Assembly (NCBI RefSeq): GCF_009914755.1
Contig: NC_060943.1
Strand: one strand, 5' to 3'
DNA length: 64,000 nt
Source: the human T2T-CHM13v2.0 reference genome, Homo sapiens
In this document: one piece after another, positions 10,451 through 13,496 of the stretch
Position numbering within the stretch: position 1 is the stretch's first letter
Layout of the letters: each line of letters starts with the position of its first letter
Made by a program: the position numbers and the translations under genes
The notes under the pieces: model-generated
Database searches by the model: none
What the model was told of the DNA's origin: nothing
What the model saw: the letters and a program-made list of their open reading frames with translations, nothing else

Positions 10451-11071
10451 GCAAGTTCCACGAGGAGAGTCACCACTGTTCCTTCCTCTCCGTGGTGCGA
10501 CCCCCCAGCTAATTGGGTCACCCACACCTCTGAGTCCCTAATCGTTAGGCCTTAAGAGGGCTCTTGGATGGTTTTCTGTAGCTGCGAGCCCCTCCCTGAG
10601 GGTCTCCAAGGGCACATGAGGGTGGATGTGTCTTAGTCCTGCGTCCATTGCAGGCTTCAGGGCTGTCTGCAGCTCCTGATCAAATAGGGCTTAGTTCCTG
10701 CCCAGTCGGTTGGTGTGAACCTCATGCTAAACTAAGAATGCTCACTGCAGATTTGCCTGGGGAGGGGCGGGGCGGCACTGAATCAGGGTTTTGGGAAGCC
10801 AGCATGAGTCCCCATCATGGCTTCCTCGTGAGCCTCTTGGGTCCCCTCCTTATTCTAACAAAGGTAGTTGCTCCAGGTGTCTGCCCTTCCATCGCCGTGG
10901 GGTCCTCGGGTCACCCTGAGGGTTTCCGGGCAGTGGACTCAGGCATCCGACCCCACACATGACACAACCTTCATTCCTTGTTGGGGACCCGGCCAGGGCC
11001 AATGAAATTGCTGACCATGCTTTGTTTCTCTCTGACTTATCTCCCCTGCCCCCGGGTCTGGACGGTTTCAG

Positions 11072-11210
11072 GACCGGGCTTTTCACCCCGGACTTGGCAT
11101 TCGAGGCCATTGTGAAAAAGCAGGTCGTCAAGCTGAAAGAGCCCTGTCTGAAATGTGTCGACCTGGTTATCCAGGAGCTAATCAATACAGTTAGGCAGTG
11201 TACCAGTAAG
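11072..11210 (+). CDS. DNM2: Dynamin 2 mutually exclusive exon 10a, [46 protein letters not shown]
   Basis: ttcag| acceptor and AAG|gtattg donor; 139 nt; paralogous to 12391-12529. Confidence 0.96.
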
Positions 11211-12390
11211 GTATTGCTCCCTCGGCAGGGTGACTCCTGACCTTGTGGAAACGGGGGTACGGGGGTTTGGTATCAGGCTCCCAGCGCCTCATTGGCCCCC
11301 ACTGGTGCCTTTTCTCCCCATATCGCTTTGTGTCCGTGAACTTGGCCTCTCCCCAGAGGCTGGGGCAGGAGCATGTAGGCCTGGGCCCAGGCACACAGGG
11401 GAGTGCCAGGCCTCCTGGACTGGCCAGACAGATGCACAGTTGTCCCTGGGACCCTGATACCAAGCCTAGCATGTGTCTGATGAAATTGGGGTTTCACTGG
11501 GCTGTTGCTTTGCTGCCTCCTGGGAAGCAGAGAGGGACCCCCCGCGTCAACTGCTGGAGGCTGAGCTCCTTGAAGCTCCCTGGCTGTCACCCCTTCTTGA
11601 CCAATGCCCGGCATTCTCAGACTTCCCTGGAGCCACCGACTTCTCTGTCCCTCAGCTCCGGGAATGGCCTGAATGCCAGCGACATCATGAGAGCCAGCTG
11701 GGGTCCTAAGTGCCCCTGCCCACCCCCTGCACCCCACGCTGTCCCCCAGGGGCAGCCCATTTTTGGATCCACTTAGTCACAGTGCCTCTATGCGCTCTCG
11801 ACGAGCCACTGCCTCCACTCAGCAGGACGCGCCGGGCTCCCCCAACCCGCGCCAACGCCGCGGGCCTGGTTCCCAGGGCAGCACGCTTTGGCCAAGCAGC
11901 TGAAATGCCTCCCAGTGGGCAGTCTGTGCTTGCGCGACCACAGTGTCCCCAGCGCTCCGGGTTGCCAGGGAATTTCTGCTTGAGCCCCTCTGTTCTTAGT
12001 CTGGAAAAGCCCACATTTGCTGCTTAAGCTTCTTCGATTAGAAAAGGGAGGGGGAAAACAGTCCAAACAGGTTGGAAAACGCTCGTCCTAGAGCCAGGTG
12101 TCATGGACATGAATGTTAGAGGACTCCGCACACCTTGGCTGTCTGTCTGTGCAATGACAACCCCCCGTGGCCCTTCTGTAACTACACCCCAGACCGAGCC
12201 CACACCCCCAAACCCCAGACCTCTTTGATCCGAAGCAGCTTCCGGGGCAAATGCGGGCGCAGGCTCCCCCATGCATGGACTAATCAGATGACTCTCGTTT
12301 CTTCTCTTCTCTCTGTCTCCTGTCCTGCGTGTGTGGCCTGCACTGTCCCTGGGTGTCTTTCTGCCTCATCCTGCCCTCCGCATGACCCAG

Positions 12391-12529
12391 GACGGGGCTC
12401 TTCACCCCCGACATGGCCTTTGAAGCCATTGTGAAAAAACAGATTGTAAAACTCAAAGAGCCGAGTTTGAAGTGTGTTGATCTCGTGGTCTCAGAGCTGG
12501 CCACGGTCATAAAAAAGTGTGCCGAGAAG
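12391..12529 (+). CDS. DNM2: Dynamin 2 mutually exclusive exon 10b, [46 protein letters not shown]
   Basis: cccag| acceptor and AAG|gtaaca donor; same 139-nt length and phase as 10a; including both or neither shifts the frame. Confidence 0.96.
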
Positions 12530-13496
12530 GTAACAGGTTTTGTTCTCATCTCCGCATTTGTCCCCGTCCTCCCCCTCCATGTGTTAGTCTCAACCCGAGC
12601 ATCTGGAAAATTCAGCCTCGGCAGGAACCCCCTTCCGCCTACCAGTTGTCACTTAGAGATGTCGCCACCTTGCATTGGCAGATGGAATGGGGGGAGTGGC
12701 ATCACACGTGGGTTGTGGCTGCCCGTGGGGGCGGTCAGCCTTTGTTGTTGCCAAACGCATTGCATTTACTAAGCAGTGCCCTTTCCTGGAACCCCTAGAG
12801 AAAGGGGTTTCCCAGCCAGCACCAAAACAGCAAAACACAGGAAACACATCATCTGTATAGCCCTGCATGTTCTCACAGTCTAGGCCACCTGAGAGTAACC
12901 ATTCCATTTTCCCCGACTCGTGGACTTGACCCACACTGCAGAAGATGGGACTCCCCTGTGCATGAGGTCTGGTTAAGTTGGTGCTGCAGATGAAGCCTGG
13001 GGAGGTGGGGGCATTTGGCGAGTGTGTGCCACAGATACAGTGATCAGGAGTGGTTCTCTGCAAGGAGTTCCTATCGAGGCTGATGGCCCAGATACCCGCC
13101 TTACCATTCTAGAACAGACGCTACTCACTCACGCTGGCGAGGCCCTTCAGGGTTCCTGCTCTCACCCAGTGCTGGGCAAGAGGGGGGTGCCCTGAAGCCC
13201 TGCATGGCAAACATGCCCCTGCTTTTCTGCTTTCATGTTGCCTCCTGCCTCCTGCCCCCCGGTCACTGGCTGGAAAAGCAGCTCTGCTCTCCTGCTGTCT
13301 CCGGTCCACGGTGCCCCCACTCTTCTGCTCTTAGCTCCCAGCTGGACTCACTGGGGGCCAGGAGCAAGGTGTGGGCTCGGTGGGCCCCCTCATATCTCAT
13401 TCCCCACCCCCCTCCGCATTTTCTACCTGTGTGGTTCATGTTGCTTCCCGTGCCACGAGGACCCCGCCAATGCGACCACTCTGCTTGTTCCCCCAG

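What the first reader, a model, noticed from the sequence alone, without database searches (positions are those of the whole stretch)
10456..13470. Candidate bidirectional competing RNA-structure switch for DNM2 mutually exclusive exons 10a/10b
Seen in sequence: a docking element just downstream of the exon 10a donor (11224-11257, GGCAGGGTGACTCCTGACCTTGTGGAAACGGGGG) is complementary to two separate selectors that share the 9-mer CCACGAGGA. The upstream selector lies right after the exon 9 donor. TTCCACGAGG (10456-10465) pairs with CCTTGTGGAA (11241-11250; 10 bp, one G-U), GAGTCACC (10467-10474) with GGTGACTC (11229-11236), and CTG with CAG. This would loop out 10a. The downstream selector lies about 30-50 nt before the exon 11 acceptor. 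CCACGAGG (13453-13460) pairs with CCTTGTGG (11241-11248), TTCCCGT (13445-13451) with ACGGGGG (11251-11257), and ACCCCGCC (13461-13468) matches GGCAGGGT at 7/8. This would loop out 10b and bring the 10a donor next to exon 11. Both states need the same docking core, so they exclude each other. Established knowledge: docking/selector pairing controls mutually exclusive exons in Drosophila Dscam1/srp and mammalian Ate1, and was proposed for DNM1 10a/10b. Inference: DNM2 uses such a switch; I do not recall this being described for DNM2.
Basis: partly seen in the sequence, partly recalled or inferred. Interest (0 to 1): 0.82.

Follow-up and report, generated by a model that had tools for sequence, protein, structure and literature searches.

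The report
DNM2 exon 10a loop-out RNA stem
Two short intron stretches on either side of dynamin-2's alternative exon 10a match each other far better than chance, so they may pair in the RNA and help choose between exons 10a and 10b, but the proposed second half of the switch is weak and nothing has been tested across species or at the bench.

Summary

The upstream pairing is a strong outlier. It joins intron 9 (10456-10480) to the stretch after the exon 10a donor (11224-11250). It has about 24 base pairs at -34.6 kcal/mol. It is the best partner of that selector in 47 kb of DNM2 pre-mRNA, by 9 kcal/mol. Its z-score is -5.96; the most extreme of 139 ordinary chr19 exon junctions is -4.33.

The downstream arm (13445-13468) is ordinary or only mildly unusual, depending on the statistic. 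Its one notable feature is that it uses the same 8-nt docking core, which is rare at that position.

Thermodynamic folding of the 3.2-kb interval predicts neither long-range helix. It pairs the docking G-runs with exon 10a's own pyrimidine tract instead.

Both exons are 139 nt, so including both or neither gives early stop codons. Exclusivity therefore does not need RNA structure.

No vertebrate genomes were available, so conservation could not be tested. I found no published description.

Verdict: a credible candidate loop-out stem. The full two-state switch is unproven.

The parts
10456..10480 (+). Upstream selector A. It starts at intron position +6 after the GC donor of exon 9.
   Evidence: sequence. 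(alignment with 24 pairs to 11224-11250). (the dock is its best partner in 1-46914: -34.6 against -25.5 for the runner-up). (z -5.96; control minimum -4.33, n=139).
11224..11257 (+). Docking element B, at +14 to +47 after the exon 10a donor. The core CCTTGTGG (11241-11248) is shared by both pairings.
   Evidence: (the best competing triple of any architecture in this cluster uses this element). (A and C rank 8th and 9th among non-overlapping partners in 47 kb).
13445..13468 (+). Downstream selector C, 52 to 29 nt before the exon 11 acceptor.
   Evidence: Weak on its own: score 20 and blind z -3.21. Predicted to sit in a local hairpin with 13419-13443, P about 0.9.
10383..10450 (+). Constitutive exon 9. 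Its donor at 10451-10452 is GC, not GT.
   Evidence: DNM1 and DNM3 also have GC here.
11072..11210 (+). Exon 10a, 139 nt. It is enclosed by the A-B pairing.
   Evidence: Annotation..
12391..12529 (+). Exon 10b, 139 nt. It would be enclosed by the B-C pairing.
   Evidence: Annotation..
13497..13583 (+). Constitutive exon 11.
   Evidence: Annotation..
10886..10918 (+). Element X in intron 9. It is a further partner of the dock and also of selector C.
   Evidence: score 28 with the dock, second best in the interval. pair I7 (10899-10914 with 13450-13465: 16 nt, 88%). (best partner of C, -35.6).
11041..11054 (+). C-rich pyrimidine tract of exon 10a. It is predicted to pair with the G-runs at 11252-11266, forming a local stem around exon 10a.
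   Evidence: P 0.99. (P 0.81 in the co-transcriptional window). (closing stem of the centroid; z -2.61; 2 of 200 shuffles fold as well).

Best explanation
The first 30 nt of intron 9 and the 35 nt that follow the exon 10a donor form a long-range RNA stem of about 24 base pairs. The stem encloses exon 10a and its 3' splice site in a loop of about 745 nt.

By analogy with known exon loop-outs, this should disfavour exon 10a and send the exon 9 donor to exon 10b. This step is inferred, not shown.

The same docking core can also pair with a site before exon 11, and with element X in intron 9.

Exclusivity at the mRNA level does not need the structure. Including both exons or neither shifts the frame. 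The structure would set the 10a:10b ratio rather than enforce one-of-two.

Shown: the complementarity, its specificity and its position. Inferred: that it forms in cells, and in which direction it acts.
For: - All pairings are present as described.
- A-B is the top pair among the six splice-site flanks.
- A-B is the best partner of the dock within exon 9 to exon 11 by complementarity.
- From A's side the dock is the best partner in 47 kb by 9 kcal/mol: -34.6 against -25.5, background mean -11.8, sd 3.7.
- Under an identical blind procedure DNM2 scores z -5.96. The 139 control junctions from 20 chr19 loci have a minimum of -4.33, and 0 of 139 reach -5. With one fixed sub-window the control minimum is -3.19.
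- 35 of 2000 composition-matched shuffles reach the A-B score.
- A is predicted to be mostly unpaired, so it is accessible.
- A triple this strong appears in 6 of 2000 shuffles and 2 of 114 control quadruplets.
- Circumstantial: the DNM2 10a/10b choice responds to knock-down of the double-stranded-RNA-binding proteins ZFR, ILF2 and ILF3 (preprint 10.1101/2022.06.15.495552, section 12 and the Fig. 6C legend).
Against: - In the equilibrium ensemble of 10383-13583 the A-B helix has probability 6.4e-4. That is about 4.5 kcal/mol above the ensemble. B-C has 1.3e-6.
- In the co-transcriptional window 10383-11300, A-B reaches only 1.3e-3.
- The dock is predicted to pair locally with exon 10a and its pyrimidine tract.
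- Raw RNAduplex energies of this size are common near GC-rich chr19 splice sites. The same architecture reaches them in 14 of 114 controls, and any architecture in 88 of 114.
- 343 of 5000 shuffles of A's 60-nt flank bind the dock as well as the real flank does.
- The dock is G-rich and sticky, with energies of -33 to -38 kcal/mol against four other flanks.
- The stem abuts position +6 of a weak GC donor and might hinder U1 binding. This is inference.
- DNM1 shows no equivalent pairing at its splice-site flanks: scores 20 and 17.
- Conservation is untested.
- The 139 controls come from only 20 loci and share flanks, so they are not independent.
Confidence: 0.5

Rival explanations
1. This is a bidirectional two-state switch: A-B loops out exon 10a, B-C loops out exon 10b, and the shared core CCTTGTGG makes the two states exclusive. 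This model is nested within the best explanation. The 0.22 is the probability that the downstream arm is functional as well.
For: - Both selectors carry the only two copies of CCACGAGGA in 64 kb.
- They are the only two sense-strand CCACRAGG sites in the DNM2 part of the window.
- An 8-nt dock core shared by these particular flanks occurs in 1 of 114 control quadruplets and 48 of 2000 shuffles.
- With the exact element as query, the dock is C's third-best partner in 47 kb, at -32.6, z about -3.8.
- A, C and X are the dock's three best RNAduplex partners within the cluster interval.
Against: - The B-C score of 20 is reached by 871 of 2000 shuffles and 45 of 114 controls.
- Blind z is -3.21 with a 9.5-kb background and -2.88 with 47 kb. 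Among controls, 23 of 139 reach -3.
- Within the interval, C ranks only 6th to 8th as a partner of the dock by complementarity.
- C's best partner is X, not the dock.
- C is predicted to be locked in a local hairpin, P about 0.9. The dock's ACGGGGG is predicted to be locked to the exon 10a pyrimidine tract, P 0.8-0.99. P(B-C) is 1.3e-6.
- The selectors are not duplicated copies next to each variable exon, as they are in ATE1.
Confidence: 0.22
2. Fortuitous complementarity. In this view exclusivity comes from the reading frame, because 139-nt exons make both-in or both-out transcripts carry early stops and decay. The 10a:10b ratio is set by proteins acting on the pyrimidine tracts and other motifs.
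For: - 9+10a+10b+11 has a stop 11 codons into exon 10b, and 9+11 has a stop in exon 12.
- Hatje et al. (PMC5740500, passages) report that most annotated human mutually exclusive exons are of this frame-dependent type.
- DNM2's exons respond in opposite directions to U2AF65 and PUF60 knock-down, linked to UG-rich pyrimidine tracts (PMC7969005, one passage).
- The interval holds 34 inverted-repeat pairs of 10 nt or more.
- 18 of 114 ordinary exon quadruplets offer some 'interpretable' competing triple.
- Neither helix is predicted to form.
Against: The A-B stem lies beyond all 139 natural controls on the specificity measure, and its partner sits exactly at the next donor. A chance event of this size is expected in roughly 1-2% of clusters or fewer.
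Confidence: 0.35
3. The docking region acts locally, not over a long range. Its two G5 runs (11252-11266) either pair with exon 10a's own C-rich pyrimidine tract and so mask that 3' splice site, or serve as G-run intronic enhancers bound by hnRNP H/F. The hnRNP H/F role is established general knowledge, recalled and not tested here. This rival can coexist with A-B, which uses 11224-11250.
For: - P is 0.99 for 11253-11257 with 11049-11053 in the 3.2-kb ensemble, and 0.81 in the co-transcriptional window.
- It is the closing stem of the centroid of 11030-11275, with z -2.61; 2 of 200 shuffles fold as well.
Against: - Complementarity score 24 for this flank pair. Scores of 24 or more occur in 302 of 1710 control flank pairs.
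- G-rich donor flanks opposite C-rich pyrimidine tracts are generic in GC-rich genes.
- This rival does not explain the mixed-sequence A-B helix.
Confidence: 0.15

Closest known systems
ATE1 exons 7a/7b: competing R1-R3 and R3-R4 pairings (Kalinina et al. 2021, PMC7797038; abstract and section 14 read)
   Same: - A mammalian pair of mutually exclusive exons.
- A docking element in the intron between the two exons, complementary to one site upstream and one downstream.
- The upstream pairing encloses the first exon.
- Helix energies are comparable: -33 and -36 kcal/mol in Table 1 of PMC8052449, against about -34 here.
   Different: - In ATE1 the two selectors lie immediately upstream of each variable exon, resemble each other, are conserved across vertebrates, and were validated by compensatory mutants and antisense blockers.
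- In DNM2 the selectors sit at the exon 9 donor and the exon 11 acceptor and share only a 9-mer.
- The downstream arm in DNM2 is statistically weak.
- Nothing in DNM2 is validated.
DNM1 exons 10a/10b: competing structure proposed by Suyama 2013 (Bioinformatics 29:2084). The paper is not held. I know it only from citations and from recall of its abstract.
   Same: It concerns the paralogous gene and the homologous exon pair. DNM2 10a is 80% identical to DNM1 10a and 72% to DNM1 10b.
   Different: - PMC8052449 Table 1 lists one DNM1 pair spanning 8864 nt, with 13-nt arms at -25.9 kcal/mol. I could not locate it unambiguously in the very GC-rich DNM1 introns.
- The DNM1 splice-site flanks show no counterpart of A-B or B-C: scores 20 and 17.
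- There is no sequence similarity between the DNM1 and DNM2 intron flanks.
[quoted passage not shown]
   Same: One docking sequence with several mutually exclusive complementary partners.
   Different: - In Dscam1 the dock follows the constitutive exon, and there is one selector in front of each variable exon.
- In DNM2 the dock follows a variable exon, and the selectors flank the whole cluster.
Exon loop-out by complementary flanking introns (review PMC11802352, passages)
   Same: The A-B arms lie in the two introns that flank exon 10a. This is the defining geometry of a loop-out that promotes skipping.
   Different: - The review's prevalent example is Alu-derived pairs.
- A-B is unique sequence. 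Its matches to Alu copies are only 11-14 nt long.
- No masked repeat of 100 nt or more lies in 10263-13963.

Membership tests
Docking-site/selector competing RNA structures at mutually exclusive exons | A cluster of tandem, homologous exons of which exactly one is included. | tested here: met
   - 10a and 10b are both 139 nt and 72% identical at protein level.
- Direct repeat D1.
- Of 5 RefSeq mRNAs, 3 carry 10a, 2 carry 10b and none carries both.
Docking-site/selector competing RNA structures at mutually exclusive exons | One docking sequence complementary to two or more selectors through overlapping nucleotides. | tested here: met
   The core 11241-11248 pairs contiguously (8 bp or more, at most one G-U) with both 10458-10465 and 13453-13460.
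Docking-site/selector competing RNA structures at mutually exclusive exons | Complementarity of each arm beyond what flanking intron sequence gives by chance. | tested here: inconclusive
   - Upstream arm: yes. 0 of 139 controls come near it, and 35 of 2000 shuffles reach its score.
- Downstream arm: no on score (871 of 2000 shuffles; 45 of 114 controls) and about the top 6-17% on z.
- Raw-energy triple: 14 of 114 controls.
Docking-site/selector competing RNA structures at mutually exclusive exons | One selector associated with each variable exon, as in Dscam1 exon 6 and ATE1 R1/R4. | tested here: not met
   The selectors lie at the exon 9 donor and the exon 11 acceptor, not next to 10a and 10b. 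They share a 9-mer but are not duplicated flank copies. A middle-intron dock that pairs in both directions is the geometry claimed instead.
Docking-site/selector competing RNA structures at mutually exclusive exons | Evolutionary conservation and compensatory substitutions in dock and selectors. | not testable with these tools
   - No vertebrate genome collection is available.
- The human paralogs DNM1 and DNM3 show no counterpart.
- The supplementary catalogue of conserved complementary regions in PMC8052449 is closed.
Docking-site/selector competing RNA structures at mutually exclusive exons | Disruption changes exon choice, and compensatory mutation restores it. | not testable with these tools
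   This is a bench experiment. See the next steps.
Exon loop-out by flanking intronic base pairing | A stable helix between the introns on either side of the regulated exon. | tested here: met
   The A-B arms flank exon 10a, with about 24 pairs at -34.6 kcal/mol.
Exon loop-out by flanking intronic base pairing | The helix is predicted to form in competition with local structure. | tested here: not met
   P is 6.4e-4 in the 3.2-kb ensemble and 1.3e-3 in the co-transcriptional window. This is a model result only. I could not calibrate it on a validated long-range structure, because the ATE1 attempt was abandoned.
Frame-enforced (NMD-backed) mutually exclusive exons | Exon lengths are not a multiple of three, so double inclusion or double skipping gives premature stops. 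| tested here: met
   Both exons are 139 nt, and both aberrant products contain early stops.

The most novel reading that the evidence does not exclude
The DNM2 10a/10b choice is set by a small network of mutually exclusive intronic pairings among four elements:
- A at the exon 9 donor;
- X in intron 9;
- the dock after exon 10a;
- C before exon 11.
The possible pairings are A-dock, X-dock, X-C and dock-C.

The balance among them would be read or shifted by the double-stranded-RNA-binding proteins ZFR, ILF2 and ILF3. That would make DNM2 a second experimentally tractable mammalian RNA-structure switch after ATE1. Its layout would differ, because the selectors sit on the constitutive splice sites rather than beside the variable exons.
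Probability: 0.12. Interest if true: 0.7.

Novelty: new member of a known kind. Interest (0 to 1): 0.5.

Why it matters
DNM2 is a disease gene; dominant mutations cause centronuclear myopathy (abstracts listed). Its 10a and 10b isoforms are made in most tissues.

Few mammalian mutually exclusive exon pairs have a defined cis-acting RNA mechanism. In the texts I read, ATE1 is the one with compensatory-mutant validation. Table 1 of PMC8052449 also files DNM1 among validated structures.

If the A-B stem works, three things follow:
- It gives precise targets of about 25 nt for antisense oligonucleotides that would shift the 10a:10b ratio.
- It offers a mechanistic link to the reported control of this event by dsRNA-binding DZF proteins.
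- It shows that the two dynamin paralogs reached structure-based control by unrelated sequences.

If it does not work, it is a useful warning. Docking/selector patterns can be read into 18 of 114 ordinary GC-rich exon quadruplets.

Tried and rejected
1. Raw RNAduplex energy as the test statistic. I rejected it because it saturates in G-rich donor flanks opposite C-rich pyrimidine tracts. 88 of 114 control quadruplets beat the DNM2 value for some architecture. DNM1 gives -45 to -56 kcal/mol for many flank pairs. I replaced it with a complementarity score and a query-normalised z.

2. Paralog support. DNM1 and DNM3 flanks show no counterpart.

3. Locating Suyama's DNM1 pairing from the spacing and energy given in PMC8052449 Table 1. 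There were too many candidates in GC-rich sequence. I did not use this as evidence.

4. Calibrating the ensemble probabilities on the validated ATE1 structure. A Pfam search of the reference (PF04377) did not reveal the duplicated exons, so I abandoned it.

5. The idea that the dock is an Alu fragment. Only 11-14-nt matches were found. Rejected.

6. CpG retention as a proxy for constraint. It is slightly raised near all exon borders and is uninformative.

7. The repeat-free interval as a sign of constraint. It is only the third-longest such gap in the DNM2 part of the window.

8. Literature.
- Searches found no description of an RNA structure at DNM2 exons 10a/10b.
- Term look-ups in PMC6071210, PMC9013439 and PMC7404189 returned no dynamin mention.
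- The ZMYND11 preprint was irrelevant.
- Supplementary tables that could bear on this are closed and were not seen: the catalogue of conserved complementary regions in PMC8052449, the appendix of PMC5740500, and the tables of the DZF preprint. A claim of 'not in print' rests only on these searches of the held library.

9. Control set and rows dropped.
- From 142 candidate chr19 genes I took the top 40, after leaving out MUC16, FCGBP, PEG3, ZIM2 and DNM2.
- Only the first 20 could be fetched.
- Exons within 70 nt of a locus end were dropped.
- For the 114 quadruplets, and for the 139 junctions, each intron tested had to be 250-3000 nt. In one search the second intron had only the lower limit of 250 nt.
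Full report
THE OBSERVATION

I read 10321-13680. Every string in the finding is at its stated place, and every pairing is as described.
- 10456-10465 pairs with 11250-11241: 10 bp, one G-U.
- 10467-10474 pairs with 11236-11229: 8 bp.
- 10476-10478 pairs with 11228-11226.
- 13453-13460 pairs with 11248-11241: 8 bp, one G-U.
- 13445-13451 pairs with 11257-11251: 7 bp, two G-U.
- 13461-13468 pairs with 11231-11224 at 7 of 8.

The upstream selector (A) starts at intron position +6 after exon 9. The dock (B) starts at +14 after exon 10a. The downstream selector (C) lies 52 to 29 nt before exon 11.

The shared 9-mer occurs only at these two sites in the 64-kb window. The expected count is 0.39, and 7 of 100 shuffles had two or more.

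On the sense strand of the DNM2 part of the window, the only perfect 8-nt partners of the docking core are these two sites.

Exons 10a and 10b are true alternatives. Of 5 RefSeq mRNAs, 3 carry 10a, 2 carry 10b and none carries both.

IS IT MORE THAN CHANCE?

I used two nulls.
- Dinucleotide-preserving shuffles of DNM2's own flanks.
- Natural controls: 114 runs of four consecutive exons ("quadruplets"), and 139 junctions, drawn from 20 chr19 loci (L005-L024). Their mean flank GC is 0.598, against 0.594 for DNM2.

I did not ask again.

Raw duplex energy does not discriminate. The DNM2 triple scores -33.7 kcal/mol and is the best triple of any architecture in its own cluster. However, 14 of 114 controls reach that value with the same architecture, and 88 of 114 with some architecture. 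G-rich donor flanks and C-rich pyrimidine tracts bind each other generically.

Shuffling A's 60-nt flank gives an equal or better duplex in 343 of 5000 trials. Shuffling C's flank does so in 158 of 5000. Shuffling the dock matches both at once in 14 of 5000.

The complementarity score weights all Watson-Crick pairs equally and penalises loops. It separates the two arms.
- A-B scores 31 with 24 pairs. This is reached by 35 of 2000 shuffles, by 1 of 114 control donor-donor pairs, and by 54 of 1710 control flank pairs of all kinds.
- B-C scores 20. This is reached by 871 of 2000 shuffles and by 45 of 114 controls.

The sharpest measure normalises each query by its own stickiness.
- With A as query against all 34-nt windows of 1-46914, the dock scores -34.6 kcal/mol. 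The runner-up scores -25.5. The background mean is -11.8 with sd 3.7.
- Run blind, with seven fixed sub-windows per flank, DNM2 gives z -5.96. The 139 controls have a minimum of -4.33, and none reaches -5. With a single fixed sub-window the control minimum is -3.19.
- For the downstream arm the blind z is -3.21, or -2.88 with the 47-kb background. Among controls, 23 of 139 reach -3, 8 of 139 reach -3.5 and 1 of 139 reaches -3.8.
- With the hand-picked element, C gives about -3.8 and the dock is only its third-best partner. The controls were not hand-picked, so that figure flatters C.

What is unusual about C is only that it hits the same 8-nt core. For these particular flanks this happens in 1 of 114 control quadruplets and in 48 of 2000 shuffles.

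I then counted ten architectures that someone could call a docking/selector system. 18 of 114 ordinary quadruplets offer at least one of them. Only 2 of 114, both in one gene, are as strong as DNM2. Among shuffles the figure is 6 of 2000.

The controls share flanks and come from only 20 loci, so these fractions are rough.

WHAT ELSE IS THERE

The dock has other partners.
- Element X (10886-10918, intron 9) is its second-best partner in the interval, with score 28.
- X also pairs with C over 16 nt at 88% (pair I7) and is C's best partner in 47 kb, at -35.6.
- The 5' end of the dock also makes a 10-bp helix with the pyrimidine tract of exon 10b, at 12366-12375.

The interval holds 34 inverted-repeat pairs of 10 nt or more.
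- One is a perfect 14-mer pair that flanks exon 10b, at 12193-12206 and 13368-13381. 22 of 500 shuffles reach a length of 14.
- Perfect complementary 10-mers number 19 against a shuffle mean of 10.4, and 20 of 500 shuffles reach 19.

The region is therefore modestly rich in self-complementarity overall.

FOLDING

The minimum-energy fold and the partition function of 10383-13583 do not contain either long-range helix.
- P(A-B) is 6.4e-4, about 4.5 kcal/mol above the ensemble. P(B-C) is 1.3e-6, about 8.3 kcal/mol above it.
- In a co-transcriptional window ending just after the dock, P(A-B) is 1.3e-3.
- Instead, the dock's G-runs pair with the C-rich pyrimidine tract of exon 10a, with P 0.99 in the full interval and 0.81 in the short window.
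- The rest of the dock alternates between a small hairpin and pairing with exon 10a.
- The tool fold of 11030-11275 has that stem as its closing helix. Its z is -2.61, and 2 of 200 shuffles fold as well.
- C is predicted to sit in a local hairpin, P about 0.9. That hairpin is not itself significant: z -1.64, with 12 of 200 shuffles folding as well.
- A is predicted to be mostly unpaired.

Such models handle long-range pairs poorly. This is my own knowledge. I could not calibrate the calculation on ATE1. I therefore treat this as moderate evidence against, and stronger against B-C than against A-B.

THE FRAME

Both exons are 139 nt. Including both gives a stop 11 codons into exon 10b. Skipping both gives a stop in exon 12. 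Exclusivity in stable mRNA therefore needs no RNA structure. A structure would tune the ratio.

PARALOGS
- DNM1 has the same 10a/10b pair. DNM2 10a is 80% identical to DNM1 10a and 72% to DNM1 10b.
- DNM3 shows a single exon 10 in the stretches I fetched.
- The intron flanks are unrelated in sequence.
- DNM1's splice-site flanks show nothing like A-B or B-C, with scores 20 and 17.
- All three genes have a GC donor at exon 9.

LITERATURE

Eight searches found no description of an RNA structure at DNM2 exons 10a/10b.
- The DNM1 proposal (Suyama 2013) is not held. I saw it only as cited. Table 1 of PMC8052449 lists one DNM1 pair, and passages in PMC11802352 and PMC6191721 mention it.
- ATE1 is the validated mammalian case (PMC7797038; abstract and section 14 read).
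- Hatje et al. screened human clusters for competing structures, and the passages I saw highlight only CD55 (PMC5740500).

Two papers bear on DNM2 directly.
- Its exon pair responds in opposite directions to U2AF65 and PUF60 depletion, linked to UG-rich pyrimidine tracts (PMC7969005, one passage).
- It is one of the validated events regulated by the dsRNA-binding proteins ZFR, ILF2 and ILF3 (preprint 10.1101/2022.06.15.495552, passages and section 12). This is circumstantial support for a role of double-stranded RNA. The text I saw names no site.

Supplementary tables were closed.

HOW IT MOST LIKELY WORKS

My best reading, at confidence 0.5, is that A and the 5' two-thirds of the dock form a stem that encloses exon 10a and lowers its use in favour of 10b.
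- Shown: the complementarity, its specificity, and its position at two consecutive donors.
- Inferred: that it forms in cells, and its direction of effect, by analogy with loop-outs described in PMC11802352.

That figure is nested within the 0.5.

The main rival, at 0.35, is coincidence plus frame-based exclusivity and protein-set ratios. A local role for the G-runs, at 0.15, can coexist with either.

Two cautions are inference only. The stem abuts position +6 of a weak GC donor. C ends next to a likely branch-point adenosine near 13469-13470. Either could make pairing inhibitory to the constitutive sites.

COMPARISON AND NOVELTY

The element works like ATE1's R1-R3-R4 system and like generic exon loop-outs. 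It differs in that the selectors sit on the constitutive splice sites rather than beside each variable exon. They are also not duplicated copies of each other.

On membership of the docking/selector class:
- It meets the criteria of an exon cluster and a shared docking core.
- It fails the criterion of one selector per variable exon.
- It is inconclusive on significance.
- It is untested on conservation and mutagenesis.

If real, it is a new member of a known kind.

VERDICT

The upstream stem deserves a conservation check and a minigene test. The downstream arm should be treated as a hypothesis that rests on one shared 8-mer.

Noticed in passing
window 10451-10452; L001 1977-1978; L002 829-830: The exon 9 donor is GC rather than GT in DNM2. 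The same holds in the paralogs DNM1 and DNM3, including DNM3, which shows only one exon 10.
   Followed up: partly
window 10886-10918: Intron 9 element X is complementary both to the dock (score 28, second best in the interval) and to selector C (16 nt at 88%; the best partner of C in 47 kb). This gives two more mutually exclusive pairings.
   Followed up: partly
window 12193-12206 and 13368-13381: A perfect 14-nt inverted repeat flanks exon 10b and could loop it out. 22 of 500 shuffles of the interval reach a length of 14.
   Followed up: partly
window 11264-11284 and 11446-11466: A 21-nt inverted repeat at 90%, with arms 161 nt apart, lies immediately 3' of the dock. Part of it is in the minimum-energy fold.
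   Followed up: no
window 11041-11054 and 11252-11266: The C-rich pyrimidine tract of exon 10a and two G5 runs after its donor are predicted to form a stem enclosing the exon. P is 0.8-0.99, and the fold of 11030-11275 has z -2.61.
   Followed up: partly
window 11233-11247; for example 27577-27606, 37897-37926, 43081-43110: The middle of the dock matches Alu copies elsewhere in the window over only 11-14 nt. Several of the dock's best RNAduplex partners in the gene share one repeated sequence that I take to be sense-strand Alu. The Alu label is my own reading and comes from no call. It is not an Alu fragment, but it could pair with intronic Alus.
   Followed up: partly
window 12307-12324 and 13519-13536: An 18-nt, 89% complementarity joins the region upstream of exon 10b to the inside of exon 11 (pair I3).
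   Followed up: no
window 11801-11900: A CpG-dense patch lies in the middle of the intron between 10a and 10b. It has 10 CpGs in 100 nt, observed/expected 0.78 and GC 0.73. The intron as a whole has observed/expected 0.40.
   Followed up: no
window 10263-13963: No masked repeat of 100 nt or more lies across the whole exon 9-11 cluster, while 32% of the DNM2 part of the window is masked. It is only the third-longest such gap, so this is weak evidence of constraint.
   Followed up: yes
G000 C19:22644043-22644174: A dynamin exon-10-like open frame, 64% identical to exon 10a and containing one stop codon, lies elsewhere on chr19. It is presumably a pseudogene fragment.
   Followed up: no
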